Below, piece after piece: positions 9,944 to 41,190 of a stretch of 64,000 nt of DNA; positions within the stretch are counted from its first letter, which is position 1; every line of letters starts with the position of its first letter. The stretch lies in contig CALSSE010000016.1 in NCBI GenBank assembly GCA_943788935.1, positions 1,759 to 65,758 of the forward strand. Reading direction: 5' to 3'. Origin of the DNA: an uncultured bacterium. Lineage in GTDB: Bacteria; Myxococcota_A; Bradymonadia; UBA7976; VGTA01. The notes below the pieces were generated by a model. That model did no database searches. It saw nothing but the letters and a program-made list of their open reading frames with translations, and was not told where the DNA came from. A program made the position numbers and the translations under genes.

Positions 9944-10104
9944 GGAGTCTCCCTAATAGATGTGCGTACTAGCTTACTCCGTTAATTTCTAAAGATGGAT
10001 CATGGAGCGCTAGCAGTTATGATTGAGCTTACGTGTCGAAGCACGTATTGATACTTAGTACATACGGTAAACCCTTTTGGGGGCATGAATCAATCATCTA
10101 TTAT

Positions 10105-20018: not shown

Positions 20019-20110
20019 ATTGTTTATCCCTATAGATGGAGAGGTGTAAAGAGTCGGTCACAAATCAGAGTTAGCGGCTCTGAATCAGAGTGAGGGGCGC
20101 TGAATCAGAG

Positions 20111-21598: not shown

Positions 21599-21725
21599 GA
21601 GGGTAAGACTCCTCTGAGCGCAGATTGTTTGTGAATAAACATTATTAAACTTTAGACTCGATACAATACAAACGATATTGTTTGAGTAGAGATTGGCATT
21701 GATTAAATTCTTTAACTAGGAGCAG

Positions 21726-26950: not shown

Positions 26951-26985
26951 GTAATGACCTGTCAGAAGAGATAAATAGGCGTAGG

Positions 26986-27885
26986 TTATCTAACCACCTT
27001 CTTGGCTCTTTTGCCCTTCTTGACTCGTTTGCCTTTAGCGGACTTATGAGCTCGCTTGGTCGCTCTTTTCCCTTTGCGAGAACCTTTTTTCACCGCTCGC
27101 TTGCCTGACTTTCCACTAAATCGAAAGACACGAGAGATCTTACGACGAGCTTTCATCTTGCCCTTCACTGTCTTGGTTTGTCCTCCACTCTTAAGAGTGA
27201 CTTTATATGGCCCAGCGGGGATTATGAAGGGTTTAGCCTGCTTGGCCTTAATCGAGCCGCGTTTCTTACCATTGATGATGACTGTCGCTGCCTTATTGGA
27301 CATAGCGACAAAGACCCCAAGGTTCTTTTTCTTTTGAGACGTCTCGGTAGGCTTAGCCGTGGGCTTTGGAGCGGGCTTTGGAGCGGGCTTAACCGTGGGC
27401 TCAGCGACGGGCTCAGCGACGACGGGTTTAGCGACAGGCTCAGCGACGGGTTTAGCGACAGGCTCAGCGACGGGTTTAGCGACAGGCTCAGCGACGACGG
27501 GTTTAGCGACAGGCTCAGCGACGACGGGTTTAGCGACAGGCTCAGCGACGACGGGTTTAGCGACGGGCTCAGCGACGGGCTCAGCGACGGGCTCAGCGAC
27601 GGGCTCAGCGACGGGCTCAGCGACGGGCTCAGCGACGACGGGTTTAGCGACAGGCTCAGCGACGGGTTCAGGCTCAATATCAATACCCTCTTGGGCTAAG
27701 ATCTTCGCTAATTCTTCTTCGGAGAGCGCTGTCTCTTCACCTTCGACAACATTGGCCTCGGTGGTGTCATCATCAAATGTAAACTCATCTGCGAAGGCAG
27801 TTGAGGATAAACTGAGCAGTAATATAAATGATAGACAACCGCTGAAGAACGGTCGACATTGAATGTTGGGTATTAGGCGCATCAA
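26986..27885 (-). CDS. Secreted protein with (PVAE/PVAK)n Pro-Val-Ala-rich tandem repeats, a PEGA-like beta domain and a Lys/Arg-rich C-terminal tail
   Basis: Signal peptide (MMRLIPNIQCRPFFSGCLSFILLLSLSSTAFA). ~30 copies of PVAEPVAKPVVAE. ATVIINGKKRGSIKAKQAKPFIIPAGPYKVTLKSGG resembles a PEGA domain. Tail is KKGSRKGKRATKRAHKSAKGKRVKKGKRAKKVVR. Overlapping ORFs on both strands in this region are repeat artefacts. Confidence 0.65.
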   Translation of the reverse strand: MMRLIPNIQCRPFFSGCLSFILLLSLSSTAFADEFTFDDDTTEANVVEGEETALSEEELAKILAQEGIDIEPEPVAEPVAKPVVAEPVAEPVAEPVAEPVAEPVAEPVAKPVVAEPVAKPVVAEPVAKPVVAEPVAKPVAEPVAKPVAEPVAKPVVAEPVAEPTVKPAPKPAPKPTAKPTETSQKKKNLGVFVAMSNKAATVIINGKKRGSIKAKQAKPFIIPAGPYKVTLKSGGQTKTVKGKMKARRKISRVFRFSGKSGKRAVKKGSRKGKRATKRAHKSAKGKRVKKGKRAKKVVR

Positions 27886-28114
27886 CGGACTCCTTATTAT
27901 GAGTAGTAAACAGCACTCACAGCTATCGTGATCTAAATGATTAACTTTGAGGCAATATAGTCATTGTTAAAGTATGCGAAAGAGCGAGAGCGTGAAACAC
28001 AAATATGATAAGGATTTGATGCTTGAAGAGAGCTCAATACAATCTAATCGCTCATAGAGGGTATGATAGACCCTCATCCTTGAACTAATCAGCTTCTCCG
28101 CGAGTTAATCACGA

Positions 28115-29296
28115 CTATCGTGGTGCACAGACTTCAGCACTGCTCATTCTTGATGAGGAGTTACCGACAAACCGATCTCTCTCATCATCAATGGTCTTGG
28201 GGAGGTCAGCACAGTGGCCATTAAACTCTGATGCTTTAGGGACACATATGCCTGCCTGACTTTGAAGGGGATCCGCAATACAGAAGGTCTGCGCTTTATT
28301 GAGGACGTCAGGACAACCTCCTTCACAGCTTAATGAACAGAAGCCTGCGGGATGACAAAATCCCTGCTGTGAGCCAGCATAAAAGTCGCAGTCTCTCTGA
28401 CAGCCACAACGATCTCCGACGAAGGCTCTCCCGCTGTTATATAGACAAGCGCTAAGCTCTTCGATGCTCCACTCCTCTTGGTCGAGTTGACTTAACTCAG
28501 CAGCGTTAGCGACCTCTGTGCCGTCGAACTCACTGAGCATCCCCTGATCCTTCATAAAGCGAGTAAATTTTCGCATAATATTCCACGCCAACCAATTCCC
28601 TCCTTGGCCTCTTAATACCCACGGAGTGTAGGCGTACATCGCCGCAGTCGCATGATTGACAGGTCTCACCCACACAGGGTCAAGGGTTTGTCTTGATCGA
28701 CCTGCTCGCCATAAACCTGTGTCTCGTCGTGATTTATTAAAAAGACCGCGCAGAGCATTTCCTCCACAACGGAGCTGGTTTCCAAAACCTTTGAAGTAGC
28801 TAGAGCAAGTCTCACCATCATGGCATCCGCAGCCTAAGGCAGCGTCCGATACCCTTTGGCTAGGCTTTGATTGACGACTGATCAAGCTCTGCTCTACTTG
28901 CATTCTCGTGAGTAACAGCAGTGGGTTCACACCGCTGTCGTGGGCTTGCTCTATAATGATTTGAGAGGCTTGTTTGCCCCCGTAGGTAAAGTCAGCGAGC
29001 CAGCTGCGTTGTCCATAGGGAGGATTTTCCAAGAAGTCTTGCAGCGCTGATACGCTTAAGGCGCCGGTGTTGAGAAAGAATAGATCGCTCATGAGCCAAT
29101 CTTGATCAAATTTGTCGAGGAGACCGTCACTCTTTCCATTCTCACCAGTGATGGGCGCTAAGTCATAGGCCACTGGATGTATAGAGGGCGTCTCATCTTC
29201 ACCAGAGGCGCACGCTGTAAGAGATAATAAGAAGAGAGAAACCAATAAAAGATAGAGCAGCGGTTTCTTAGCAACTGATATATATCTTTGAGTCAC
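28115..29296 (-). CDS. Hypothetical Cys-rich lipoprotein
   Basis: N-terminus LLLVSLFLLSLTACASGE (lipobox LTAC). C-terminal region carries many paired Cys (CGCHDGETC..., CGCQRDCDFY..., CSLSCEGGCPD). Confidence 0.6.
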   Translation of the reverse strand: MTQRYISVAKKPLLYLLLVSLFLLSLTACASGEDETPSIHPVAYDLAPITGENGKSDGLLDKFDQDWLMSDLFFLNTGALSVSALQDFLENPPYGQRSWLADFTYGGKQASQIIIEQAHDSGVNPLLLLTRMQVEQSLISRQSKPSQRVSDAALGCGCHDGETCSSYFKGFGNQLRCGGNALRGLFNKSRRDTGLWRAGRSRQTLDPVWVRPVNHATAAMYAYTPWVLRGQGGNWLAWNIMRKFTRFMKDQGMLSEFDGTEVANAAELSQLDQEEWSIEELSACLYNSGRAFVGDRCGCQRDCDFYAGSQQGFCHPAGFCSLSCEGGCPDVLNKAQTFCIADPLQSQAGICVPKASEFNGHCADLPKTIDDERDRFVGNSSSRMSSAEVCAPR

Positions 29297-29413
29297 AGTG
29301 TTACCTCCCTGTAGTAGCGATCTCTAGTATAGACTTGATCGAGACTGCTTGACAAGGGAGGATAACTTTGAGGCCGGCTTGTTAGCCCGCATTACCCTGT
29401 GTTATCGGTGTGC

Positions 29414-31486
29414 CTATCGGTGCTTACGCGCTTCTGTAGCGGAGATTTTCACCATGTATTCCCCCGAGCTTTCAGGGAAACGAGCTTGATAATCACTCAG
29501 TGCTGCTCTCGCTCGAGGCTTTCCTTGATATGGCCCAATTCTCACTCGATGAACCATCTGTCCATTATCTTGCTTGACGCTCAAGATATAGGCGGGGAAA
29601 CGCTCTTTACTGATCTGATCTCGTACCTTCTCAGCGTCTGTTAATCGATATGATGCTTTGACTTGAATCGCGTAGGGTTTAGCTGAACTATCGCTTGTTT
29701 CAACAGGGGCTTCGGTCTCTGGGGTTGACTGAGGAGTCGCCAGGCGTGGAGAGGGGACATCTTGTGCTCTGTGATTAGAAGGTGATTCTACCGGTGGAGC
29801 GCTCTCAACTTTAAAAATCTCTTGAGGACCTTTGATGATCCTAAAATCTACTCGACGGTTGAGGGCTCGACCTTCATCTGTATCGTTGGAGGCTATGGGT
29901 CGTTGATCTCCATAACCAGCGGCTTCTAGACGAGTGATCTCTACACCTAAGCCTACTAAGTGTAACTTCACAGCTTCCGCTCGCTCTTGAGAGAGTTTTA
30001 GGTTGAATTGAACCCCACCCGTGTCATCGGTGTGACCTTCGATACGAACGGAGGTGATCTGTGGATGTGTCTTCATCAGACTGGCGACTTGAGCTAACAC
30101 TGGAAAGCTCTTAGTTAAAATGATCGATTCATTATGCTTAAAGAAGATCTTCTCACTTAAACCGATCAGCTGTCCCTCGGGTGAAGGTGCCTCATTGTCA
30201 GGACAGCCGTCGAGGTCATCAACTTGATTATAGGTCTCCGCTTGAAGAGGGCATCGATCGACTGTATCAGGGATACGATCACCATCATTATCAGGATCAG
30301 GGCAGCCATCGCTGTCCTCGAACTGATCACGATCCTCAGCTTGTCGTGGACATCGGTCTTGAGCGTCGCTGATACCGTCTTGGTCTATATCGTCTTCTGG
30401 GCATCCATCATGATCATCGTGGCCATCTTGATCTTCCGGCTGAGTGGGACACCGATCAACAATATCGATGAGACCGTCACCATCTTGATCAGTGAGGGGA
30501 AGCCCTCCACCTTGAGACGGCTGTGGTGTCCAAGTGAGTCCACCGAGCATGCGTAATCCGACGCTGCTAAAATCGCCTCCAATCCCAGCACCCATTCCAA
30601 AATGGACATTAAATGCTCCTTGTCGAGTAGAACGAAGTGCCATCAGGCCTTCTAATGGTGCTCGACTATAGTCCATGAATCGCTGGAAGATCTCGGCGGT
30701 AATCTCTAGATCCTCATCTACTTTGTAGCCACCGGCGATCGACCATGTGGGACCGCTACTGACGTCGAGATCGGTGACACGGTCAAAGTCTCCTCGGAGT
30801 GGACGGAGACGATAACCGAGGTTGAGGGCTACTCGTCCGGTCTCGAAGAGATACTCTCCAAATAGATTAAAGAAAGTAGAGAAGTTTCTCCTCACGAAGA
30901 GCAGCTCTTCATCTGATCGGTCATAGTCCCCAGTGGGTAGGATGCTGAGGAGATTGGCTCCGAGGCCCAAACCTCTTTGATCTTTCGGTTTAATGAAGAT
31001 CACCTTTGGGTTGAGGCGTAAGTCTCCTAAACCTTGGGCGTCGTCTACCGGAAAATTGCCATTCACTCCAGAGCTAAAGCTATAGGGTATAGCGATACCT
31101 AGCTCTACTCGATCATGAACACCAAAGGCAGCGACGAGCTCAGTTGTGGTGATGTAGCGAACAAGCACCTCTTCTACTTGACCATCGACCATGAGCAAGA
31201 GGGGGTCTCGACCATAGTGAGTATAGCCGCTGAGGTTCCATTTTCCTGGCTTGACGATTCGTGATCCCTCTACTTGAACATAGCTAAGCTGGCCATGAGT
31301 AGGGAGGAGGAATTGTAAGTCTTGAGCGCTTGACTGAGTAGATGAGGTAAGACTCATGATAACCATAAGCAAGAGAGCGAATGACAGAGTAGACACAGTG
31401 TGAGACACAGTGTGAGACACAGCGTGAACCCCTCTCTTCCCTCGAACTAATAATCTTTTGATCTCCTTAGAGGATGTCATTCTCAA
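29414..31486 (-). CDS. Outer-membrane protein: N-terminal beta-barrel-like region + TSP3 repeats + OmpA C-terminal peptidoglycan-binding domain + C-terminal SPOR domain
   Basis: TSP3 repeats DQDGDGLIDIVDRCP...DQDGHDDHDGCPEDDIDQDGISDAQDRCP...DSDGCPDPDNDGDRIPDTVDRCP. OmpA-C motif IEGHTDDTGGVQFNLKLSQERAEAV...ALNRRVDF. SPOR-like tail KPYAIQVKASYRLTDAEKVRDQISKERFPAYILSVKQDNGQMVHRVRIGPYQGKPRARAA. A (VSHT)n 12-nt repeat lies near the N-terminus. Confidence 0.8.
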   Translation of the reverse strand: MRMTSSKEIKRLLVRGKRGVHAVSHTVSHTVSTLSFALLLMVIMSLTSSTQSSAQDLQFLLPTHGQLSYVQVEGSRIVKPGKWNLSGYTHYGRDPLLLMVDGQVEEVLVRYITTTELVAAFGVHDRVELGIAIPYSFSSGVNGNFPVDDAQGLGDLRLNPKVIFIKPKDQRGLGLGANLLSILPTGDYDRSDEELLFVRRNFSTFFNLFGEYLFETGRVALNLGYRLRPLRGDFDRVTDLDVSSGPTWSIAGGYKVDEDLEITAEIFQRFMDYSRAPLEGLMALRSTRQGAFNVHFGMGAGIGGDFSSVGLRMLGGLTWTPQPSQGGGLPLTDQDGDGLIDIVDRCPTQPEDQDGHDDHDGCPEDDIDQDGISDAQDRCPRQAEDRDQFEDSDGCPDPDNDGDRIPDTVDRCPLQAETYNQVDDLDGCPDNEAPSPEGQLIGLSEKIFFKHNESIILTKSFPVLAQVASLMKTHPQITSVRIEGHTDDTGGVQFNLKLSQERAEAVKLHLVGLGVEITRLEAAGYGDQRPIASNDTDEGRALNRRVDFRIIKGPQEIFKVESAPPVESPSNHRAQDVPSPRLATPQSTPETEAPVETSDSSAKPYAIQVKASYRLTDAEKVRDQISKERFPAYILSVKQDNGQMVHRVRIGPYQGKPRARAALSDYQARFPESSGEYMVKISATEARKHR

Positions 31487-31490
31487 GGCT

Positions 31491-34400
31491 CTATACTCCC
31501 TCAGTTCGACGTCTAAGTATCAAGCTGAGGAGCCCGAGAAGCAGGAGTAAACCTGAAAGTTGCCCTCTCCAGTGACCCCCTTGATCACAACTCGCAGTGG
31601 CGTAGCTACCACCTGCAAAATTTCGGTCTTCAGAAGGAGTGTACTCTCCATCAAGGTCTACATTATCGCCATCAGCATTATTTGAGCCATCAGTATTGTT
31701 TGAGCCATCATCGTTATTTGAGCCATCTGCAGCGCCACCGATCCTGACAGTTAACCAATACCGTTGCTCGGTAAGCCCTCCATCACCGACCCATGTTGAT
31801 TCGTCACTCGCTGCGCTATTATAATGTCCATCTTCGGCGACCAAAGTGATGCGGATAGGTCCTTCAGGTTGATCTTGTGGGACCTCCCAAACAACATGCC
31901 AAATACGGTCAGAGGGTTGAGCAACGATCTCCATACCAGCCGGTGCTCCTTCACCGATAGTAAGTGTCAGTGCATCAGATATTCCAGCGTCATCGAGACG
32001 AACTTCGTACACATAAGACTCACCGGGCGCGACTACTTCTACAGGGTCAGAGATGAAGGTAGGCGCAAGGTTTGAGATATGTGCCTGGATTTGTGAGACT
32101 CGAGGGGTTCTCTCATCTTGATTACTGACGGTCACTAAGTAAATGCCGTCATCGACATAGCGATGTCCAGCTTCGGCGCCCCAACGAGTAAATCCATCGC
32201 CAAAGTCCCACAACCAATCCATCGCTTGTTCTTCAACGTCATCACAAGCGGTGGGGTCTACCTTGGCTTCGAGGGTGACCAGCGCAGGGTCTACTCTGAA
32301 GACGACGCATCGTCCCTCCTCGCCAAGCACATGATCATCAGCGATCGCTGACTGATTCCAAGGACTTAAATCATAGGTGACGGTTTCTTCGGTAGAGAGG
32401 CCTGACCAAGGATCAGTGACCCTAATGGTGATCTCATAAGTGTTGGCTTCGGGGTAGGTATTGAAGGCGAGTGGGTCGAGTTGAGTTTCTATTTCCCATG
32501 TGCCATCACTCTCAAAGTCAAAGTCATAAGTGAGACCATCGGGGGAGTCGGCGTCTTCAGCGGTAACGCTAACTAGAATTTCTCCTCCCACCGTTTGAGA
32601 GATAGAGACCTCTTCTATATCGGTCGCGTTATCTTGGATGATCGCCTCGAAGCTCTGCTCAGTCATGAGGCCACGTTGGTCTGTCACGCGAACTTTACCG
32701 GGATAAGGGGTGAGCTCATTATATTCATAAGTACGATTACCTTCACCACCGGCGAGAGGACTGAAGTCAGGCTCTTCACCCATCTCGAACTCTAGTTCAT
32801 TCCCCCAGATCACTTCGTAGGAGAGAGGGCCTCCCTCGGGGTCATGAGCCTCGACCAAAAGATGAGCGCGACCTCGGGGGGTATAGGTGAGGTCTACGGC
32901 AGTGATCACCGGCGGTAACTCTTGAGCGACGACTACCGTGATCTCCTCCATGACGCCAGACCATGGATCTAGCACTCCGATCCGGACAGTATACTCATCA
33001 GCGGTAGGGAAGATATGAGACGCGGAGTTGTCAATATTGTCAGTGCTATCCCACTGAGCGTCATTATCAAAGTCCCAATAGTATCTCAGACTAGGAGAGT
33101 CTAGATCGAGTGCTTGGACAGTGAACAGTCGAGCTCCATCAGCGAGACGATTCTGTTGTACTCTAGAGATCACAGTAGGCTCGTCGATAAGATCGATCTG
33201 CGAGAAAGCGATGGTTTCTTGTCCACTCGGGTCGGTAGCTGTTACCTGTAGTGGGTAATTGATCGGTCCGAAGGGGAGAGATCGGGAGGCTGTTCCACCA
33301 AAGACTTGAGTTACGGGAGTGCCATCGCCCCAATTAAGAGTGATCGTGAGCGGTTGTCCTTCGGGGTCACGAGCTTCGATCGCGACTGTTGATTGACCAC
33401 CGGAGCGAACTGTCGGCGTGACGCTATCGATGATAGGGGGTAGGTTCTCTTCGGGCTCAAAGACGATCTCAAAGGTGTGACTTGTCTCTCCTCCTCGACC
33501 ATCAGAAGCGGTGACTGTCGCGCTATATGTCGTAAATACATCAGCTGGATAACTATGGATAAATATACCGCCACCATTGCTCTGACTCACTGAGTCATCG
33601 CCCGCTTCGAAGGTGTATCGAACAGTGTCATCATCAGGGTCAACCGCTGAGGTCACGAAGGTGATGAGCCATTCATCTCTCAAGGTGGCGAGCTGCTCAA
33701 ATTGGGGGGCGCGATTAGCGACGACGACATCTACCTCAACGGTAGTAGAAGCTCCACTCTCATCGATCACTGTGATATGAGCGGGGATGTTGTCAGCATC
33801 TGGTCCTGAATAACTGAAGCTATAGCTGTTCTGCGCAGAGCGATCGGCCTCAGGGATTCCATCAGCTCCGACATCAAAGGTGTAAACGAGCCGATCTGAC
33901 TTGAAGGGGATCGAGATGTCTAAAGGAGCGCGCGGGGCAGACTCTCCATTGTCGTCATCAACCGCCCAAGTATAGGCTGTCGCCTCATAGCCGTCAGGGA
34001 GTTCAAATGGCACTGTACCATTGGCGAGCTCAGCCTCGGTGAGGCTGAAATCCCATCCGTCGGGGCCATCTAGACTTATATAAGTGGTGAACTCATCGGC
34101 GACATCACTAGCGATGGGGTGAGCGGTAGCGCTGACACCATGCTCCGCTCGGGCGATGACAGTGATACGATAGCGTCCGTTCCCTTCAGAGATCGCTTCA
34201 GCGCTGATAATCACTGGCGGACGCTCTGTGATATCGATTCGACCCCAAGTAGCCAGCGGTGGTATATTAGGGATTAAGAACTCGATAAACTCTTCTGAGG
34301 ACAAACCGCCGCTATCGGTAGCGATGACTCTAATGACATCAACGCGAGTCCCCTCTCCATTTGGCTTATAGGTGAATGAAGGGCCCATATCATCTGGCTT

Positions 34401-35276
34401 ATCATCATAAGCGGGATCGGTGACAATCACGCCGTCTCCCTCGATTAAAGTATATTCATAAGTGATCCCGAGCGCTCCTTCAGGGTCTTCGGTTCCGCCA
34501 AGGTCAACAAATACGTCGCTGAGGCCATTTCCTCCTCCGTTGCCACCACCACCATCACCATCACCATCATCCGTGCCGACAGTAATGGTACCACAGTCCT
34601 CTCCTTCAGGAGGGGTCTCGCCAGCGCAGAGGTCGATATCAGGTGGCTCACTGTTAAGGAGGAGCTGGATACTGGCGCTGCCTTCAGCGCAGCGAGAACA
34701 GTCATCTTGATCTAGACCATCGAGACACTCGTTGGTCCACTGACCGTCATCGCACACTCTCATGGGGATAGAGATGAGCTCACCGATCGCGAGGCTAGGG
34801 TTAACTACGAAAGAGACTGTACTCTCTGTTCCATCTTCTCCCTCGTCATCATAATCACCATCGAGGTTAAGGTCGAAGTGAATGGAGACCACTCGGTCAG
34901 GAATACCGGGGGGACGAGTGTTATCGCCGGGGAATGGTGCCTGGGTAGCGTCTACATCATAGGATGCTCTACCATCAAGAGTGATGGTGCTCTCGGCATA
35001 TCCAGAATAAATGACTGTTGAACCTAGAGGGTGAGGGACTACTGTAGGTGGGTTGTTCTGCTTAGAGACCACTACTTTTACGGAGTCTACGTCATCTACA
35101 TATCGGCCGCGAGTATCGGTCACTCTTAGTCGAACACCATATTGTTCTTCCTCACCCCAATCAATATCAGGGCTGTACGAGAACGAGAATTGCTCATATG
35201 GGTCAATCGTCACAAAATCCCAGCGGATCTCAGATTGGTCAACAACCCCATCACCGTTGGTATCTTCATTACACAT
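31491..35276 (-). CDS. PKD-domain-rich cell-surface protein with MYXO-CTERM-like tail (Cys + hydrophobic helix + RRR). Lacks its own signal peptide and is probably the C-terminal part of a frameshift-split gene with 35539..37140
   Basis: Multiple PKD signatures (WDFDNDAQWD, WDFGDGFTRWG..., YDFDFESDGTWE). Tail ...GGSYATASCDQGGHWRGQLSGLLLLLGLLSLILRRRTEGV. The same reading frame stays open and protein-like for ~80 codons upstream of the annotated Met (…FPEFISPGGEVTFDHSWSYTLDPSVNIFNYQWNVIDYVDASLPNCAPEVNGCTDQNDDGDCDDAGE-M). Confidence 0.7.
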   Translation of the reverse strand: MCNEDTNGDGVVDQSEIRWDFVTIDPYEQFSFSYSPDIDWGEEEQYGVRLRVTDTRGRYVDDVDSVKVVVSKQNNPPTVVPHPLGSTVIYSGYAESTITLDGRASYDVDATQAPFPGDNTRPPGIPDRVVSIHFDLNLDGDYDDEGEDGTESTVSFVVNPSLAIGELISIPMRVCDDGQWTNECLDGLDQDDCSRCAEGSASIQLLLNSEPPDIDLCAGETPPEGEDCGTITVGTDDGDGDGGGGNGGGNGLSDVFVDLGGTEDPEGALGITYEYTLIEGDGVIVTDPAYDDKPDDMGPSFTYKPNGEGTRVDVIRVIATDSGGLSSEEFIEFLIPNIPPLATWGRIDITERPPVIISAEAISEGNGRYRITVIARAEHGVSATAHPIASDVADEFTTYISLDGPDGWDFSLTEAELANGTVPFELPDGYEATAYTWAVDDDNGESAPRAPLDISIPFKSDRLVYTFDVGADGIPEADRSAQNSYSFSYSGPDADNIPAHITVIDESGASTTVEVDVVVANRAPQFEQLATLRDEWLITFVTSAVDPDDDTVRYTFEAGDDSVSQSNGGGIFIHSYPADVFTTYSATVTASDGRGGETSHTFEIVFEPEENLPPIIDSVTPTVRSGGQSTVAIEARDPEGQPLTITLNWGDGTPVTQVFGGTASRSLPFGPINYPLQVTATDPSGQETIAFSQIDLIDEPTVISRVQQNRLADGARLFTVQALDLDSPSLRYYWDFDNDAQWDSTDNIDNSASHIFPTADEYTVRIGVLDPWSGVMEEITVVVAQELPPVITAVDLTYTPRGRAHLLVEAHDPEGGPLSYEVIWGNELEFEMGEEPDFSPLAGGEGNRTYEYNELTPYPGKVRVTDQRGLMTEQSFEAIIQDNATDIEEVSISQTVGGEILVSVTAEDADSPDGLTYDFDFESDGTWEIETQLDPLAFNTYPEANTYEITIRVTDPWSGLSTEETVTYDLSPWNQSAIADDHVLGEEGRCVVFRVDPALVTLEAKVDPTACDDVEEQAMDWLWDFGDGFTRWGAEAGHRYVDDGIYLVTVSNQDERTPRVSQIQAHISNLAPTFISDPVEVVAPGESYVYEVRLDDAGISDALTLTIGEGAPAGMEIVAQPSDRIWHVVWEVPQDQPEGPIRITLVAEDGHYNSAASDESTWVGDGGLTEQRYWLTVRIGGAADGSNNDDGSNNTDGSNNADGDNVDLDGEYTPSEDRNFAGGSYATASCDQGGHWRGQLSGLLLLLGLLSLILRRRTEGV

Positions 35277-35538
35277 TTCCCCCGCATCATCACAGTCGCC
35301 ATCATCGTTTTGGTCGGTACAGCCATTGACCTCTGGTGCACAATTCGGAAGAGAGGCATCAACATAGTCGATGACATTCCATTGATAGTTAAAGATATTG
35401 ACCGAAGGGTCTAGAGTGTAAGACCAACTATGATCAAAGGTGACCTCACCGCCTGGGCTAATAAACTCTGGGAAGGCTCTGGCATACGCCCATACTTCAA
35501 GCCAAGTCTGTATGACTTGGATGATAAGACCGGTGCGC

Positions 35539-37140
35539 TCATTGGTACCAATATAGCTCCCCCATCCCCAGCCTCCTACCCAATTCCATGAGCCATTCGC
35601 TTGTTGACGAGCGCTTCACGTCATTTGTGCGGGTAGAATAGCCTGAGACAAAGAAATCGACCATTACTTTGCTCCAGTCAGTACCGTTAGGCAATAATTT
35701 TACCTCGGGGACAAAAGAGCGTAAACCTTTGGTAGTCGCGTAAATAAAGTATAATCCCCAATGAGCGTCGTCATTCATAAACCAATCTTGAGCGGCGTTG
35801 ATCGAGGCTTGTGTTTGGCCTGCTCCGCTATTGACTTGGTTCTCTGTCCAGCCATAGCCAACGAGAGCGTTACCTGAGAGCTTTGGCCCTCCACCATGAT
35901 ACGAACAGTATCCGTTACTGCAGTAGGAACTTAACCAGCTGCGATGGTTATTTTTGGCAAAGTCATAGGTTTCAATGCCATATTTTCTCTCTAGGATGCG
36001 CAGCGCCTCTGGAGCCCAACCAGTGGTAGAGGCGTCAGTTGTGGAGCCACCTCCACAAGAGTAGTACCAGCCCCCATTTGAGGTCATGCAGCGAACGAGG
36101 CCATCAGCGAGGTCTTGACCGATATCCTTGAGTGTCCGGTTATGAGTAGCCTCTCCACCGGCTTGAGAGACATAATTGGGGTCACCAAAATTAGCGAGCG
36201 GCTCAACCCATGCTGTTGACTCATAACTAGACCAATGGCTAGAGAGGATCCCATGAGCGGAAGTGAAAGCGATCGCGAACCCATCCCGACCAGCGGTGTC
36301 TGTGTCATTAAACCCTGAGCTGACATAGGTCATGGTATCCATCATGGCGTGAAGACCACATTGGGTGAAGTTACGATAATAGGGGTCGCTCTCTCGTCCT
36401 GCACCATGACCGTGGCCGCGGCGTAAAAAAGCGTTCATCGCATGACCAGTCGCGTATAGTTTCTTCGAACCAGGGACAGTACAAGTATGAATGTTATGCC
36501 CCGCAGCATCAGTAGAGCTGTGCAGTGTTCTCGTGAATAAATACCACAGGCCGCGATCTACGGTTCGATCGGAGTACACTTGCCGACTTAGGTCGAGGTT
36601 GTCCCCGACGTCACAGCCTGCATTCGTAGCGTTATTAGCGTAGTTGCTACAGATTCGATTCACTCGAATCAGTACCGGCATAGTTGAAGTCGCGACCTCT
36701 TCTCCACACTGCACTTGTACCTTAGGGTAATAAATTCTATCCCCTTCAGCATCAGGGAATGTGACCTCTAGGGGGAGGGGTGCGAAATAATTGGAGTAAG
36801 CAGCGCTGCTCGCCTGTTGGAACTCCTCATTAGCATCGTCATAATCACCGTCACCATTCCAATCCCATCGATAACTATAATTGGGAGAGCAGGTGCCATG
36901 TTCAGCGATCGCTTGGAGCATTGTTGGTAGCCCATTGACCGCTATATGTGGGATCTCAGGTTTACCTTGTACCCATTGTATCGAGGTGACCTTAAGAGGT
37001 TCTGCAGACGCTGTGGAGCTTGTTGCCGAATAACAGCCTATAACCACAATAGCGGAGAGTAAGGATAAATAGCCGTCCAGATAAGGGACAAATCTATTAT
37101 ATTTTGTGCCCTTAGGTATGTCTGTGCTTGATGTGCTCAT
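35539..37140 (-). CDS. Secreted protein with PKD-like segment and alpha/alpha-toroid (terpene-cyclase/prenyltransferase-like repeat) region; probable N-terminal portion of the split surface protein
   Basis: Signal peptide (MSTSST...LSLLSAIVVIGCYSATSSTASA), YRWDWNGDGDYDD, GGWYYSCGGG and QDWFMNDDAHWGLYFIYATTKGL. Its stop lies inside the open upstream extension of the 31491..35276 frame. My hand count of the stop position differs by 1 nt from the track, so the exact junction is unverified. Confidence 0.6.
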   Translation of the reverse strand: MSTSSTDIPKGTKYNRFVPYLDGYLSLLSAIVVIGCYSATSSTASAEPLKVTSIQWVQGKPEIPHIAVNGLPTMLQAIAEHGTCSPNYSYRWDWNGDGDYDDANEEFQQASSAAYSNYFAPLPLEVTFPDAEGDRIYYPKVQVQCGEEVATSTMPVLIRVNRICSNYANNATNAGCDVGDNLDLSRQVYSDRTVDRGLWYLFTRTLHSSTDAAGHNIHTCTVPGSKKLYATGHAMNAFLRRGHGHGAGRESDPYYRNFTQCGLHAMMDTMTYVSSGFNDTDTAGRDGFAIAFTSAHGILSSHWSSYESTAWVEPLANFGDPNYVSQAGGEATHNRTLKDIGQDLADGLVRCMTSNGGWYYSCGGGSTTDASTTGWAPEALRILERKYGIETYDFAKNNHRSWLSSYCSNGYCSYHGGGPKLSGNALVGYGWTENQVNSGAGQTQASINAAQDWFMNDDAHWGLYFIYATTKGLRSFVPEVKLLPNGTDWSKVMVDFFVSGYSTRTNDVKRSSTSEWLMELGRRLGMGELYWYQ

Positions 37141-37327
37141 ATTTGCCTCATGAATATATGATTTCGTGATTAAACAAAATCTTGAGATCAGCAGCGTATA
37201 TCTAGTGAGTACCTCGCCACTGAGCTTATTACCTTTAAGATAGGTATTTCTACTTAATTACCTTTCATAATCTTGGCTGTTACGCAAAAGATCTGCAAGG
37301 TCTAAATATATGATCAAGAAAGAAAGA

Positions 37328-39241
37328 CTAGTTCATCTCGAGACCCTTTTCTGTTAAGGATTCAGAATGATTAAGTTTGTCACTCAGGCTGCGGGGGATA
37401 AGAGGTGATGTCTCAAGTACTGAGAGGATACCCTCAGCGATCTGCTCTCCAAGTTGACGATATCCTGTAGGGCTGAGATGGACTAAATCGAGCTGACTCC
37501 ACCGATCTGGTTTAGCACAAGCCCAAGATCTCATAGAGCCGGTTCCCCCCATGTCTGCTAGGGTATCATAAACGATACAACCTTCAGCGAGACCGACTCT
37601 TTTCTGAAGATCAACGATTGATTCAAGGTATAAGGGGGCTCGATAAGCGCAGCTTGACCTGTAGGTCTCCCATTGTTTGTCTGTTTTCACCTCGGGGACA
37701 GGGAAGCGATGGCGACCACGTTTACGATGGTTTACCAGTTCATCAGGAGCACAGACACGGGACCATCGCGTGCGATTAAGCTCCTCTAAGAAATCAGGGC
37801 GCTTACTCTTTCGCTTTAAATATCTACGTTGGCGCTTGGTGAGATAGCAGTTACGGTCTCGTCGACCAAAATCGGGGGGAGTGATTATGAGACAGGAGGC
37901 TTGAGGCGCTTGGGCTTTGAGGCGTTGGATGAGTCCTCTGAAGCGATCTTCGTATATTTTCAGACTTCCTGATTCTCTAGCAGCAGTATTCGTACCGAAC
38001 CATAGGGCGATCAGCTGCGGAGATTCTGATTGAATCCACTGGTTCAAGGTCTCATCTGCTTGAGTGTAAGGACTCCAGATCGTCGCTCCTCGAACTCCCA
38101 TAGAGTACAGTTGAACAGCCTTCTTATGGCTAGCATTTAGTGGTTCGGCTTTGAAGCCGAGGAGCTGTAGATAAGGCTTTTTGGGAAATATTAGCCGAGA
38201 ATCAGTGGCATAGCTCGGCGCTTTGATTCGCTTGTAAAATGCGTCTCTCTTGTGACGAGGATACCTCTTTCTAACCCTCGCTCTCTGTCTTTTAATGGAT
38301 CTCCTGCTCCGCTCACGTTTCTTCAACAACTGACGCCCAACCTTGAAACCGCGACTCAGCGAGAGCGTCAAACTATGACCGGCGAGTAACTCGATCTCAA
38401 TGGAGCCGAGCTTTTGTTCTCCCTCGATGAGCTCCCCAGCAAGGTGACAAGAAGTGACAGAGTGATCTTGATCTGAGGTTAGACAAAAGGGTAACTCCTC
38501 GCCAGTACGCTCGAAGTAAGCGGTGATTTTTAACCCTTGGTGACCTTCACTCTTCAGGGTGACAGTGGCGTCTTTATCTTGAGTCGCGAAAGCGATCCCT
38601 AACGGTCCAAAAGAGCCTTTGTCTCTGCGGTATAACCAGTTTTGCCTCAGCCATACTCCTTGGGTATTTACCTCAAAAGCGCTATGGATAGGATGGTCGA
38701 CTGTCACAAAGCCCGAAGTAGATAGAGTAGATGAATGAGAAGAGCCCTGATGGGCTTCAGGGATGGAGGGATTTAGGCGATCTCTAAGCGTCTGAGCGAT
38801 GGCCTCGCCGATGTAACCTCCCTGGGTATGTGAATCACCGTAGAGTACTGTTTTAAACGGTGTGTTTTTTTTATTCAGGTCTCGATAAAGTTTACCAACA
38901 GCTTCGGAGGGTAGAAGCATAGAGCCCCAGACTCGATCTGAAGGCGTGAACACTTGAGGAGAGATCGATGTCGTCTCATCCAAAGACTCTTTGGGGGAGG
39001 GCGTTGCTGTCAGTAATGGTTTTGAAGACACTTCAATGGCGCGTCTCACCTCTCTACTTTCCAATGCAATCCGTGAGGAGCTCAGCTTCATTGTCTGTTG
39101 CAGAGACTCTTGAGGAGCGATGGGGAAATTACTGGTCGAGGCGCAGCTAGAATGGCAACTAGAAAAGAGGATGGCGATCCCTAGGAGTCCAAACTCACTG
39201 GTGGAGATCGACCTGCGCTTGTCAAGCGTGATACGCCGCAT
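37328..39241 (-). CDS. SGNH/GDSL-hydrolase-family secreted protein (lipoprotein-like N-terminus)
   Basis: VLYGDSHTQGGYIG (GDS-H block I), ALWFGTNTAAR, and DLVHLSPTGYRQLGE (DxxH block V). N-terminal hydrophobic segment with Cys. Confidence 0.6.
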   Translation of the reverse strand: MRRITLDKRRSISTSEFGLLGIAILFSSCHSSCASTSNFPIAPQESLQQTMKLSSSRIALESREVRRAIEVSSKPLLTATPSPKESLDETTSISPQVFTPSDRVWGSMLLPSEAVGKLYRDLNKKNTPFKTVLYGDSHTQGGYIGEAIAQTLRDRLNPSIPEAHQGSSHSSTLSTSGFVTVDHPIHSAFEVNTQGVWLRQNWLYRRDKGSFGPLGIAFATQDKDATVTLKSEGHQGLKITAYFERTGEELPFCLTSDQDHSVTSCHLAGELIEGEQKLGSIEIELLAGHSLTLSLSRGFKVGRQLLKKRERSRRSIKRQRARVRKRYPRHKRDAFYKRIKAPSYATDSRLIFPKKPYLQLLGFKAEPLNASHKKAVQLYSMGVRGATIWSPYTQADETLNQWIQSESPQLIALWFGTNTAARESGSLKIYEDRFRGLIQRLKAQAPQASCLIITPPDFGRRDRNCYLTKRQRRYLKRKSKRPDFLEELNRTRWSRVCAPDELVNHRKRGRHRFPVPEVKTDKQWETYRSSCAYRAPLYLESIVDLQKRVGLAEGCIVYDTLADMGGTGSMRSWACAKPDRWSQLDLVHLSPTGYRQLGEQIAEGILSVLETSPLIPRSLSDKLNHSESLTEKGLEMN

Positions 39242-39439
39242 AGCTCTCCTTCGGAGATGATCGAATATGGAACAGATAAAGATGGTGGGGCAGAGTGAAC
39301 GAAAACATATGGAGGGTCAAGTGCTTGAGCGTCTTAGATGAGGCAATCTCCATGACCATACGTTTCAGAGTTGAGCTTTGACTTCATTCACAGTTAAGAT
39401 ACTCCCACCTCTCAAATAACCGAGCTAAAGTGTTGAGGA

Positions 39440-39472
39440 CAATTGACATGAAAACAATTGACATGAAAACAA
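39440..39472. repeat. 15-nt direct repeat x2 containing two TTGACA hexamers (acaattgacatgaaa) upstream of the liu-like cluster; candidate promoter/operator duplication
   Basis: acaattgacatgaaaacaattgacatgaaaacaacgtgtatgaaa read directly. Confidence 0.3.
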
Positions 39473-39495
39473 CGTGTATGAAAGAGAGTGACTAG

Positions 39496-41175
39496 ATGAG
39501 TCTTGAACAGAGCTCTCATCTCGATCTCATTCGCCGAGTCAGGACACTTGAATCTGCGGTGCGAGAGAGCTCACGGAGGGCAAAAGGTAAATTTGCCAAG
39601 CGCGGGCAGCTCACTCCAAGAGCTAGACTTAACCGACTATTAGATCCCGCGACTCCTCTCCTTGAGCTGTCGACGTTAGCTGGCTTGGGGATGCATGATG
39701 ACAAAGCTATAGCTAGCTTTAAAGTTAATACACATACCGAGAAGGAGGTTGGAAAAGAGACCGGAAAAGAGACCGGAAAAGAGACCGAGATAGAGAAGCC
39801 GTTAGGGGGGAGTGGAATATCAGCGATCGGTTGGGTGAGCGGACTCCGCGTCGTGATCTATGTTCATGATGCCTCCATTAAAGGAGGGGCGATCTCCCCC
39901 ATGGGAGTGAAAAAACTTCTCCGCGCTCAGCAGATCGCGTTAGAGAATGCTCTCCCTATGATCACCCTAGCGGAGAGTGCTGGCGCTAATCTTAGCTACC
40001 AGTCAGAGCTGTTCGTAGAAGGGGGGAAGACTTTCGCTAATCAAGCACGGTTATCAGCGAAAGGGATTCCTCAACTGACCATTGTTCATGGTTCTAGTAC
40101 GGCTGGAGGAGCTTATATTCCTGGTTTATCTGATTTGGTGATCATGGTGAAAGAGCGAGCGAAGGTTTTTCTGGCAGGACCACCACTGGTCGCTGCGGCG
40201 ACCGGTGAAGTCGTCGACGACGAGACCCTTGGCGGAGCTGAAATGCATGGTGAAATTACCGGGTCAGCCGAGTGGGTGGCTGAGGATGACCAAGAGGCGA
40301 TTCTGATGGCTCGACGATGGTTGAGAACGATTTACTCGAGCTTATCTCCTAGGCAGGTTGAGTGTCTCACTCATTCCTTATATTTAGATTCAGCATCCTC
40401 GACGTTAAGCTCTCAAGAGGTTTTAAAGAGGGTACCTGTTGATTTTAGAGTTCCCTATGACCCACGTGCTCTCTTGGAGGTGATCGCAGATCATAGGGAA
40501 ATAGACGAGTTCAAACCCCATTTTGGTCAAGATATGGTGGTCGGCTTAATGAAATGTTATGGCCAACCTGTTGCATTTCTCTGTAATCATGGCCCTATCT
40601 TTCCCCAAGGAGCGAGTAAAGCGGCTCAGTGGATCGCTCTCTCTTGCCAGCGGGGCTGGCCTTTAGTATTTTTTCAAAATACGACTGGATTCATGGTGGG
40701 CTCTCAAGCAGAGCGAGACGGGATCGTAAAGCGTGGTTCAGCTCTGATTCAAGCGGTCACGAACGCCACAGTACCCAAGGTGACCTTTCTTATTGGAGGC
40801 TCATTTGGCGCTGGTCATTATGCGATGTGTGGTCGTCCCTTTGATCCTCGATTTATCTTTGCTTGGCCCAACCAACGCTTGGCGGTCATGGGTGGCGCTC
40901 AAGCGGCGGGAGTCTTTGATCAAATTGCCTCGCGAGCAGGTATGCCCCAAGCTAAAAGAGATGCACAGCGGATTAGAATTGAATCACAATTTGATCGTGA
41001 ATCTACTTCGCTATTCGCTACCGCAAGACTCTGGGATGATGGTATTATCGATCCCAGAGACACTCGGCGTGTTTTAGGTGAGACGCTCTCAATCTTTGAA
41101 TGGGAGCGCTCATGGAGAGCGTCCAAGAAGACTCGCGATCTAGGTGAATTTCCTCTAGGGGTCGCTAGATTGTGA
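39496..41175 (+). CDS. Acyl-CoA carboxylase carboxyltransferase (beta) subunit, methylcrotonyl-CoA carboxylase-like, with an inserted (GKET)3 repeat
   Basis: ARLNRLLDPATPLLELSTLAG, GGAYIPGLSDLVIMV..AKVFLAGPPLV, and two carboxyltransferase halves. Assigned to MCC rather than PCC by operon context (IVD-like ACAD, hydratase, biotin carboxylase). Tandem 12-nt x3 insert at ~39748-39792. Confidence 0.8.
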   Translation: MSLEQSSHLDLIRRVRTLESAVRESSRRAKGKFAKRGQLTPRARLNRLLDPATPLLELSTLAGLGMHDDKAIASFKVNTHTEKEVGKETGKETGKETEIEKPLGGSGISAIGWVSGLRVVIYVHDASIKGGAISPMGVKKLLRAQQIALENALPMITLAESAGANLSYQSELFVEGGKTFANQARLSAKGIPQLTIVHGSSTAGGAYIPGLSDLVIMVKERAKVFLAGPPLVAAATGEVVDDETLGGAEMHGEITGSAEWVAEDDQEAILMARRWLRTIYSSLSPRQVECLTHSLYLDSASSTLSSQEVLKRVPVDFRVPYDPRALLEVIADHREIDEFKPHFGQDMVVGLMKCYGQPVAFLCNHGPIFPQGASKAAQWIALSCQRGWPLVFFQNTTGFMVGSQAERDGIVKRGSALIQAVTNATVPKVTFLIGGSFGAGHYAMCGRPFDPRFIFAWPNQRLAVMGGAQAAGVFDQIASRAGMPQAKRDAQRIRIESQFDRESTSLFATARLWDDGIIDPRDTRRVLGETLSIFEWERSWRASKKTRDLGEFPLGVARL

Positions 41176-41190
41176 TTAAAATATAAGTGC

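What the first reader, a model, noticed from the sequence alone, without database searches (positions are those of the whole stretch)
31491..37140. PKD-rich MYXO-CTERM-like surface protein appears split from its signal-peptide-bearing N-terminal half by a frameshift
ORF 35539..37140 has a signal peptide but no anchor. ORF 31491..35276 has a C-terminal Cys + hydrophobic helix + RRR sorting tail (MYXO-CTERM-like) but begins abruptly (MCNEDTNGDG) with no signal peptide. By my hand translation, the downstream frame stays open and protein-like for ~80 codons upstream of its first Met (…VIQTWLEVWAYARAFPEFISPGGEVTFDHSWSYTLDPSVNIFNYQWNVIDYVDASLPNCAPEVNGCTDQNDDGDCDDAGE) and overlaps the end of the upstream ORF. 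This is the signature of a +/-1 frameshift, which could be a sequencing error, a genuine pseudogene, or a slippage-prone site. My manual coordinate count near 35540 disagrees with the track by 1 nt, so the exact junction needs recomputation.
Basis: partly seen in the sequence, partly recalled or inferred. Interest (0 to 1): 0.6.

Follow-up and report, generated by a model that had tools for sequence, protein, structure and literature searches.

The report
Surface-protein gene split by assembly error
One extra base splits a 1,882-residue myxobacterial surface-protein gene in this assembly, but three other assemblies of the same population carry it intact, so the split is most likely a consensus error at a strain-variable site, not biology.

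Summary
ORF A (35539..37140, minus strand) and ORF B (31491..35276, minus strand) are two pieces of one gene. B's frame stays open for 113 start-less codons upstream and overlaps A, and one extra base (G on the coding strand, 35614) separates the frames.

All 32 other homologous loci that cover this point, except one, read through it in a single frame. The closest relative (79% identity) has a single 1,860-aa ORF.

The decisive evidence comes from three independent assemblies of the same population (99.6-99.8% DNA identity). All three have the gene intact: one encodes 1,882 aa, and two read through until their contigs end. The extra G sits exactly on an A/G difference between two co-occurring haplotypes (AAC vs AGC), and the window carries both alleles in tandem (AAGC). 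The window is also a mosaic of those haplotypes over about 400 nt. The best explanation is therefore a consensus or polishing artefact of a strain-mixed assembly (about 0.72). A rare real null allele is the main rival (about 0.22).

The intact protein has a signal peptide, an Ig-like domain, a conserved (α/α)6 toroid, PKD-type repeats and a MYXO-CTERM-like tail. It is followed at a 4-nt distance by a TraB-like β-barrel/OmpA/SPOR gene. This is a TraAB/MXAN_5598-like arrangement with a different head domain. The frameshift is of low interest; the gene family is modestly interesting.

The parts
31491..37140 (-). The whole gene as it should read: 1,882 codons plus stop once one base is removed
   Evidence: Removing one base at 35614-35616 gives a stop-free product of 1,882 aa. 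It differs at 4 residues, including the repaired codon 509, from the intact 1,882-aa gene of L043.
35539..37140 (-). ORF A: 533 aa covering the signal peptide, the Ig-like domain and most of the toroid. The last 24 residues (RSSTSEWLMELGRRLGMGELYWYQ) are out-of-frame sequence
   Evidence: It aligns to residues 20-496 of the L001 ORF.
35277..35615 (-). Start-less open extension of B's frame (113 codons). It encodes the conserved QxxNGSWxW motif and the last toroid helix
   Evidence: It is 79% identical to L001 with dN 0.17 and dS 1.9. Alignments.
35614..35614 (-). The extra base: G on the coding strand, C on the + strand. Its placement is ambiguous within 35614-35617
   Evidence: Window reads GTGAAGCGCT, L043 and L046 read GTGAACGCT, and L047 reads ACAAGCGCT.
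35505..35890 (-). Strain-variable patch (codons 417-545). The window is a mosaic of two co-occurring haplotypes here
   Evidence: Variable-site table. L043 vs L047 in codons 417-545 differ by 26 synonymous and 7 non-synonymous codons. Logan contigs end at 35702 and start at 35504.
37003..37140 (-). Signal peptide (residues 1-46, ...STASA|EPLKV)
   Evidence: It aligns with the N-terminal hydrophobic leaders of all full-length homologues. No signal-peptide predictor was available.
36661..36993 (-). Ig-like beta-sandwich (about residues 50-160)
   Evidence: AlphaFold2 model, strands 50-159, pLDDT about 80-90.
35490..36603 (-). (alpha/alpha)6 toroid head domain (about residues 180-550), interrupted by the frameshift at residue 509
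   Evidence: Models (pTM 0.81). Foldseek hits include squalene-hopene cyclase at E 6e-4, epimerases, GH76 and C3d/TED. Many invariant residues.
31594..35276 (-). Stalk region: beta-sandwich, PKD, Big_9 and cadherin-like repeats of ORF B
   Evidence: Pfam: PKD 7.6e-25 (4 stretches), PKD_4 1.6e-24, Big_9 4.8e-8.
31494..31592 (-). C-terminal sorting tail SCDQGGHWRGQLSGLLLLLGLLSLILRRRTEGV (Cys, TM helix, RRR)
   Evidence: TIGR03901 MYXO-CTERM scores 14.7 bits, below the cut-off of 20. Homologue tails score 21 and 30.3 bits.
29414..31486 (-). TraB-like partner gene: signal peptide, beta-barrel-like N-terminal region, TSP3 repeats, OmpA and SPOR. It starts 4 nt after the stop codon of the large gene
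   Evidence: Pfam finds OmpA, SPOR and TSP_3. NCBIfam TraB scores 184 bits for the whole protein and 34.7 bits for the N-terminal 330 aa alone, over profile positions 5-297. Junction sequence.
37328..39241 (-). Upstream GDSL-lipase-like gene. It is syntenic only in the closest relative

Best explanation
The two ORFs are one gene for a 1,882-residue cell-surface protein. In this assembly the gene carries one spurious extra base (G at 35614, coding strand). That base was most likely introduced when a consensus was built from reads of at least two co-occurring strains.

The strains differ here by a small multi-base variant (GTG AAC vs ACA AGC). The consensus kept the backbone of one haplotype and added the other haplotype's G as an insertion, giving AAGC. 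The organism's real gene is therefore intact.

Inferred mechanism of the intact protein:
- It is exported by its signal peptide.
- Its C-terminal Cys/TM/RRR tail is lipidated and cleaved in the myxosortase pathway.
- It is displayed on the outer membrane as a conserved toroid head on a PKD-type stalk.
- It works with the TraB-like beta-barrel/OmpA/SPOR protein encoded 4 nt downstream, which ties the complex to peptidoglycan.

Shown: the single-gene status, the position of the extra base, the haplotype structure, the domain folds and the gene pairing. Inferred: the artefact mechanism and the surface-display function.
For: 1. Three independent assemblies of the same population have the frame intact. 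L043 is 99.82% identical over 22 kb and has one 1,882-aa gene. L046 and L047 read through the site for 588 and 748 aa until their contigs end.
2. The extra G falls exactly on the A/G difference of codon 509 between haplotypes (AAC in L043 and L046, AGC in L047). The window contains both alleles in tandem.
3. The window switches haplotype several times within 400 nt. Positions 35680-35890 and 35532 are L047-like. Positions 35559-35665 and 35505 are L043-like. This is what per-site consensus of a mixture produces.
4. Two short-read Logan contigs stop at 35702 and 35504, the edges of the variable patch. This shows within-sample heterogeneity there.
5. Private indels that break conserved ORFs occur in the sister assembly too. 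L043 has four, which split three genes that are intact in the window. Indel discrepancies between these assemblies therefore behave like errors.
6. The 4.1 kb downstream of the shift has no stop, dN of about 0.2 and saturated dS against L001. The two haplotypes differ by 26 synonymous and 7 non-synonymous codons within codons 417-545. The gene is under purifying selection.
7. No product identical to A, to B or to a predicted A-frame fragment is on record in any other assembly.
Against: - No reads could be inspected, so the artefact is inferred, not seen.
- The site is not a homopolymer.
- The rest of the 64-kb window has no other split gene, including an intact open frame of more than 9.9 kb with 33 tandem repeats. 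The assembly's indel error rate is therefore low.
- A natural recombination between the two haplotypes, misaligned by one base, would give the identical sequence.
- An unrelated family member (L011) carries a real-looking 22-nt frameshifting deletion in the same loop. Disruptive indels do arise there in nature.
Confidence: 0.72

Rival explanations
1. The extra base is real. It is a recent loss-of-function allele (a young pseudogene) carried by one strain of the population, perhaps created by a recombination event between the two haplotypes that was misaligned by one base. The cell would make a 533-aa secreted fragment with an incomplete toroid. It would make no exported stalk or anchor.
For: - The window haplotype upstream of the site (35702-35890) is confirmed base-for-base by an independent short-read contig.
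- The window otherwise shows no indel errors in about 58 kb of coding sequence.
- The site is not a homopolymer.
- Large surface proteins are commonly lost, and L011 shows a natural-looking frameshifting deletion in the same loop.
Against: - No other assembly carries the extra base, and three have the intact frame.
- The inserted base duplicates a known SNP allele at exactly that column. That is an improbable coincidence for a spontaneous mutation.
- No secondary decay is seen. There are no stops in the 1,374 codons downstream.
Confidence: 0.22
2. Programmed +1 ribosomal frameshifting or a slippage-prone phase-variation site produces the full-length protein from the sequence as written.
For: - Both frames are open over 77 nt.
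- A second family member (L011) is also shifted within 3 codons of this point.
Against: - To yield the conserved ARQQANGSWNW sequence, the shift must happen at GTG AAG CGC.
- There is no slippery codon, no in-frame stop or rare codon at that site, and no repeat tract.
- Of the other 33 relatives, 32 need no shift.
- L011 is shifted in the opposite direction, by a 22-nt deletion.
- Near-identical strains encode the protein in one frame.
Confidence: 0.02
3. A and B are two genuine separate genes: a secreted enzyme and a separately made anchored protein.
For: Each is a long ORF with an ATG.
Against: - The boundary cuts the toroid domain before its last helix.
- B has no signal peptide and 113 start-less conserved codons upstream.
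- The A tail is unconserved out-of-frame sequence.
- Every full-length homologue is a single protein.
Confidence: 0.01

Closest known systems
TraA/TraB outer-membrane-exchange pair of Myxococcus xanthus (PMC3325183, PMC12045341)
   Same: Both have a signal peptide, a head domain, a repetitive stalk and a Cys/TM/Arg sorting tail. Both are encoded immediately upstream of, and tightly coupled to, a gene for signal peptide + OM beta-barrel + TSP3 repeats + OmpA. The distance is 4 nt here, and the traA and traB ORFs overlap by 4 bases. The neighbour's N-terminal region is detectably homologous to TraB's otherwise orphan N-terminal region.
   Different: - No PA14-like variable domain and no TIGR04201 Cys-rich repeats are found, and no NCBIfam hit at all is found for the large protein.
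- The head is a conserved (alpha/alpha)6 toroid, not a polymorphic lectin-like domain.
- The stalk is made of PKD/Ig repeats.
- The protein is 2.7 times longer.
- The partner scores 184 bits against TraB's 700-bit cut-off and carries an extra SPOR domain.
[quoted passage not shown]
   Same: Both combine a large adhesin, a MYXO-CTERM and a TraB-like barrel/OmpA module. Family members L009 and L029 are exactly this kind of fusion: the sorting tail runs without a stop codon into the partner's signal peptide.
   Different: In the window the two are separate genes. MXAN_5598 lies in a cell-division gene cluster, and this locus does not.
Thioester-containing proteins (alpha2-macroglobulin, complement C3/C5, TEP1) and terpenoid-cyclase-like (alpha/alpha)6 barrels
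   Same: The N-terminal module, a beta-sandwich plus an alpha/alpha toroid plus a beta-sandwich, is matched by Foldseek to C5, alpha2M and TEP1 (E 5e-7). The toroid alone matches squalene-hopene cyclase, C3d, GH76 and cellobiose 2-epimerase. Distant relatives give sub-threshold Pfam hits to SQHop_cyclase and TED_complement.
   Different: TM-scores are low (0.2-0.55) and identity is 7-14%. No CxEQ thioester motif was found when I read the alignment. No Pfam model reaches its cut-off. No catalytic motif of any of these families was identified.

Membership tests
MYXO-CTERM sorting-tag proteins (TIGR03901) | Tripartite C-terminus: a short motif with an invariant Cys, then a TM helix, then an Arg-rich end (PMC11980579) | tested here: met
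   The tail reads ...ASCDQGGHWRGQLSGLLLLLGLLSLILRRRTEGV and shows all three parts. Homologue tails have the same layout.
MYXO-CTERM sorting-tag proteins (TIGR03901) | HMM score at or above the curated cut-off (20 bits) | tested here: not met
   The window tail scores 14.7 bits (E 0.03), and only the TM/RRR part aligns. Homologues L003 (21 bits) and L004 (30.3 bits) pass; L001 and L002 give no hit. The tail is therefore 'MYXO-CTERM-like', with membership shown only at family level.
MYXO-CTERM sorting-tag proteins (TIGR03901) | A myxosortase (MrtX, CPBP protease) in the same genome, and cleavage that depends on it | not testable with these tools
   Only 64 kb of the genome is available. The proteins scanned include no CPBP protease. 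No experiment is possible.
TraA (kin-recognition receptor) | PA14-like variable domain and TIGR04201 Cys-rich repeats | tested here: not met
   NCBIfam scans of A, B and the extended B gave no family at E <= 0.01. Pfam finds only PKD, Big_9 and Cadherin. The model shows a toroid head instead.
TraA (kin-recognition receptor) | Encoded directly upstream of a traB-type gene | tested here: met
   There are 4 nt between the stop codon and the TTG of the TraB-like gene. The same adjacency is seen in L001, L005, L007, L009 and L029. In L008 and L013 the TraB-like gene lies upstream.
TraB (outer membrane exchange partner, NF033763) | Architecture of signal peptide, N-terminal OM beta-barrel, TSP3 repeats and an OmpA-like domain (PMC12045341) | tested here: met
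   Pfam finds TSP_3, OmpA and an extra SPOR. The N-terminal 330 aa alone match TraB profile positions 5-297 at E 4.9e-9. The barrel fold itself was not modelled.
TraB (outer membrane exchange partner, NF033763) | Score at or above the curated cut-off (700 bits) | tested here: not met
   The score is 184.3 bits. This is a distant relative, not an orthologue.
Thioester-containing proteins (alpha2M/C3 family) | CxEQ thioester motif in the TED toroid | tested here: not met
   I found no CxEQ in the toroid when reading the alignment by eye. The conserved Cys context is TQCGL[NH]. The Pfam A2M/TED models give no hit.
Programmed +1 frameshift genes (prfB type) | Slippery P-site codon with an in-frame stop or hungry codon at the shift site, conserved among relatives | tested here: not met
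   The site is GTG AAG CGC with no stop until 25 codons later. Of the other 33 loci, 32 are in one frame.

The most novel reading that the evidence does not exclude
Setting the frameshift aside, the intact gene and its neighbour may define a second kind of TraAB-like surface machine in uncultured marine and freshwater Myxococcota. It would consist of a lipid-anchored receptor or enzyme whose head is a strongly conserved (alpha/alpha)6 toroid rather than a polymorphic PA14 domain, docked on a TraB-like barrel that grips peptidoglycan through OmpA plus SPOR. In some lineages the two are made as one polyprotein, in which the sorting tail's Arg/Lys cluster doubles as the n-region of the partner's signal peptide. 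The locally hyper-variable, recombining patch at the edge of the toroid would then be a site of strain-level diversification.
Probability: 0.35. Interest if true: 0.45.

Novelty: not a real feature. Interest (0 to 1): 0.15.

Why it matters
The value here is mainly data hygiene. Annotation pipelines would report this locus as a pseudogene or as two 'hypothetical proteins', yet the organism almost certainly makes one 1,882-residue surface protein. It is also a clean worked example of how consensus building in a strain-mixed metagenome turns a multi-base variant into a frameshift.

There is a secondary point. The repaired gene belongs to an uncharacterised family: about 24 clusters at 50% identity are close relatives, and 245 share the toroid domain. 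The family pairs a MYXO-CTERM adhesin with a TraB-like partner. This extends the TraAB/MXAN_5598 design beyond cultured myxobacteria and to a new head domain.

Tried and rejected
- Exact look-ups of ORF A, ORF B and a predicted 63-aa A-frame fragment in public assemblies found nothing on record. This is uninformative about whether the allele exists.
- The first metagenome scan with exact junction peptides found nothing.
- dN/dS against L001 could not be computed for most segments because dS is saturated. It shows only long-term purifying selection.
- The promoter and terminator scan of 29000..39600 was at chance level: 12 against 10.8 expected, and 8 against 7.3 expected. It gives no support for an independent promoter for B.
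- The homopolymer idea (ccccatcccc/ggggg) was rejected. Those runs lie 40-60 nt downstream of the true site.
- My first reconstructions of the inserted base were wrong: skipping the C at 35613, then an A-to-AA duplication inferred from L029. The near-identical assemblies showed instead that the G at 35614 is the extra base.
- The coincidence with L011, which is shifted within 3 codons of this point, was explained as a separate 22-nt deletion in a loop that varies in length across the family. It is not a shared mechanism.
- A thioester-protein reading of the head was rejected because there is no CxEQ motif.
- The PDB sequence search found nothing relevant.
Full report
**Observation.** Both ORFs lie on the minus strand: A at 35539..37140 (533 aa) and B at 31491..35276 (1,261 aa). 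Walking upstream from B's ATG, the frame stays open for 113 codons, up to a TGA at 35618..35616. That stretch holds no ATG, GTG or TTG. Both frames are open over 35539..35615. B is +1 relative to A, so the sequence holds one base too many. Among all open frames of at least 150 codons in the window, B is the only real gene with such a long start-less extension; the one other case is an antisense shadow.

**One gene in relatives.**
- A junction-spanning query (the A frame up to ...NDVKR joined to the B frame from ARQQ...) retrieves single proteins that cover 94-97% of it at 44-51% identity.
- In nine genome loci from uncultured Myxococcota, Bradymonadia and Nannocystaceae MAGs, the A part and the B part are contiguous in one frame.
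- The full-length ORFs are 1,860-3,191 aa. Each has an N-terminal leader and a C-terminal Cys/hydrophobic/Arg tail.
- The closest relative, L001 (79% identity), has one 1,860-aa ORF and the same four-gene synteny.
- A profile of the head domain finds 245 clusters among 1.84 billion representatives, 24 of them at E <= 1e-30. All long close members match the profile as one stretch across the junction.
- A second metagenome scan added 29 loci. In total, 32 of the 33 other loci that cover the junction are in a single frame there.

**Where the shift falls in the protein.** An AlphaFold2 model of residues 1-698 of the repaired protein (pLDDT 74.5, pTM 0.70) shows four parts: a leader, an Ig-like sandwich (about 50-160), an (alpha/alpha)6 toroid (about 180-550) and further beta domains. 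The toroid modelled alone has pTM 0.81. The shift at residue 509 lies in a surface loop just before the last long helix (NERTGLIIQVIQTWLEVWAY). That helix and the conserved QxxNGSWxW motif are therefore encoded in B's frame. A on its own is an incomplete domain with a 24-residue nonsense tail. B on its own has neither a start codon nor a signal peptide. The two-gene reading is excluded.

**The decisive evidence: the same population, assembled independently.** Exact-sequence look-ups of the neighbouring proteins found other assemblies.
- L043 (ENA ERZ10646634, contig_15444) is 99.82% identical to window 19415..41480. It encodes one 1,882-aa gene where the window has A and B.
- Logan contigs L046 (ERR9769304) and L047 (ERR9769288) read through the site for 588 and 748 residues, until the contigs end.
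- Logan contigs from ERR9769289 and ERR9769290 are 100% and 99.99% identical to the window. They stop at 35702 and 35504, on either side of the site.

On the coding strand the three versions read:
- L043 and L046: GAC GTG AAC GCT CGT
- L047: GAC ACA AGC GCT CGA
- window: GAC GTG AAG CGC TCG

The window is the L043 haplotype plus one G, and that G sits exactly at the A/G difference of codon 509. Both alleles are present in tandem.

Around the site the assemblies differ at about 35 positions within 35505..35890, whereas the 8.8 kb from 26160 to 35015 shows none. Within this patch the window alternates between haplotypes. It is L047-like at 35680-35890 and at 35532. It is L043-like at 35559-35665 and at 35505. 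Within codons 417-545 the two in-frame haplotypes differ by 26 synonymous and 7 non-synonymous codons, so both are under purifying selection.

L043 has four private indels of its own. They split three genes that are intact in the window. Indel discrepancies among these assemblies therefore behave as errors in whichever assembly deviates.

**Interpretation of the frameshift.** When reads of the ACAAGC haplotype are aligned to a GTGAAC backbone, the local cluster of differences can be represented as an insertion plus a deletion; MAFFT does exactly this. A per-variant consensus or polishing step that accepts the insertion but rejects the deletion yields precisely the window's sequence. Four observations point to a consensus artefact of a strain-mixed assembly, which I put at about 0.72:
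- the mosaic haplotype in the window;
- the contig breaks at the patch edges;
- three intact sister assemblies;
- the absence of any downstream decay (no stop in 1,374 codons).

A real, recent null allele remains possible, at about 0.22. The site is not a homopolymer, the rest of the window shows no indel error, and the upstream part of the window haplotype is independently confirmed. Programmed frameshifting is very unlikely. The only position that restores the conserved sequence is GTG AAG CGC, which has no slippery or stalling feature, and relatives need no shift.

L011, the only other shifted family member, has a 22-nt deletion relative to its nearest relative L018. The deletion is flanked by CTAAA microhomology and lies in the same loop. 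That loop is present in some clades and absent in others, so it is prone to indels. This is a coincidence of location, not a shared mechanism.

**What the gene is.**
- Pfam finds PKD (four stretches), PKD_4 and Big_9 above their cut-offs, plus a sub-threshold Cadherin match, in the stalk. It finds nothing in the head. NCBIfam finds nothing.
- The whole N-terminal model resembles the MG-TED-MG region of complement C5, alpha2-macroglobulin and TEP1 (E about 5e-7, TM < 0.3).
- The toroid alone gives generic (alpha/alpha)6 hits: squalene-hopene cyclase at 6e-4, cellobiose 2-epimerase, GH76 and C3d.
- Distant relatives give only sub-threshold SQHop_cyclase and TED_complement signals. I saw no CxEQ thioester motif when reading the alignments.
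- The head is more conserved than the stalk: 47-56% against 33-45% identity to most relatives. It has many invariant polar and aromatic residues. This suggests a specific ligand-binding or catalytic role that I cannot name.
- The C-terminal tail has the Cys/TM/RRR layout of MYXO-CTERM (PMC11980579). It scores 14.7 bits against a cut-off of 20, and the tails of two homologues pass.

**The partner.** Four nucleotides after the stop codon begins a 690-aa ORF. It has a leader, TSP3 repeats, OmpA and SPOR.
- It matches NCBIfam TraB at 184 bits against a cut-off of 700.
- Its first 330 residues alone match TraB profile positions 5-297 at E 4.9e-9. This is the part of TraB now described as an OM beta-barrel (PMC12045341).
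- A TraB-like gene is adjacent in L001, L005, L007, L008, L009, L013 and L029. It is not adjacent in the freshwater clade or in L002-L004.
- In L009 and L029 there is no stop codon between the two genes. The sorting tail's K/R cluster runs straight into the partner's signal peptide.
- Guo, Haft and Wall (PMC11980579) describe the same fused layout for M. xanthus MXAN_5598 and compare it with TraA+TraB.

The locus therefore works like a TraAB/MXAN_5598-type pair. The large protein is not TraA, because it lacks the PA14-like domain and the TIGR04201 repeats. The partner is only a distant TraB relative.

**Verdict.** The cause is most likely an assembly artefact. The frameshift is of low interest. 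The underlying gene family and its TraB-like pairing are a modest new instance of a recently described design.

Noticed in passing
window 2..9952 (minus strand); tandem array at 8..5665: One open frame of at least 3,317 codons runs off the window start. It has a signal peptide (MRYSPLIALTLLLSPFSVYAQA), an N-terminal domain that looks FGE-sulfatase-like by eye, and 33 tandem 171-nt (57-aa) Cys/Asp-rich repeats with 80% matches and no indels. The listed + strand ORF 12..5831 (1,939 aa, Ser-rich) is its antisense shadow.
   Followed up: partly
L009 9941..18001; L029 9488..>17251: In two relatives the large surface-protein gene and the TraB-like gene form one open frame with no stop codon. The sequence runs ...GCDQ, hydrophobic helix, K(L)R/KRRK, and then directly into the partner's signal peptide (...AQA|QDLQLF). 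This is a natural fusion like MXAN_5598.
   Followed up: partly
L011 about 2530..2560 (JGI 3300027129): This is the only other family member with a frameshift, and the shift lies within 3 codons of the window's. It is a 22-nt deletion relative to its closest relative L018, flanked by CTAAA microhomology, in a loop that is present or absent among clades.
   Followed up: yes
window 35505..35890: This patch shows about 5-9% divergence between co-occurring haplotypes, mostly at synonymous sites, in a background that is otherwise about 99.9% identical, with no differences over the 8.8 kb from 26160 to 35015. It looks like an imported recombination tract at the edge of the toroid domain.
   Followed up: partly
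L043 vs window 41325, 26157, 24201, 23501: The sister assembly has four private 1-nt indels. They split the acyl-CoA dehydrogenase gene (405 aa into 369 + 41) and two large genes (794 aa into 243 + 540; 947 aa into 259 + 591) that are intact in the window. These are probably long-read errors.
   Followed up: partly
P0002, P0005 (C-terminal ~300 aa); L034, L035 tails: Some family members end in an FGE-sulfatase domain (PF03781) instead of a sorting tail. Two others end in ...RWSCE or ...RWNCD with no TM helix. The same head is therefore deployed with different C-terminal modules.
   Followed up: no
window 29414..31486: The TraB-like partner carries a C-terminal SPOR domain (septal peptidoglycan binding) in addition to OmpA. 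The sources read here do not list SPOR among the domains of M. xanthus TraB.
   Followed up: no
window 28115..29296 and L001 17628..18815: A 393-aa protein with no Pfam or NCBIfam hit follows the TraB-like gene in the window, in L001 (68% identity) and in L043. It may be a fourth member of the cluster.
   Followed up: no
window 26986..27885: A 299-aa ORF has PT-rich repeats whose DNA is internally repeated. Logan contig L044 ends inside it, at 27639.
   Followed up: no
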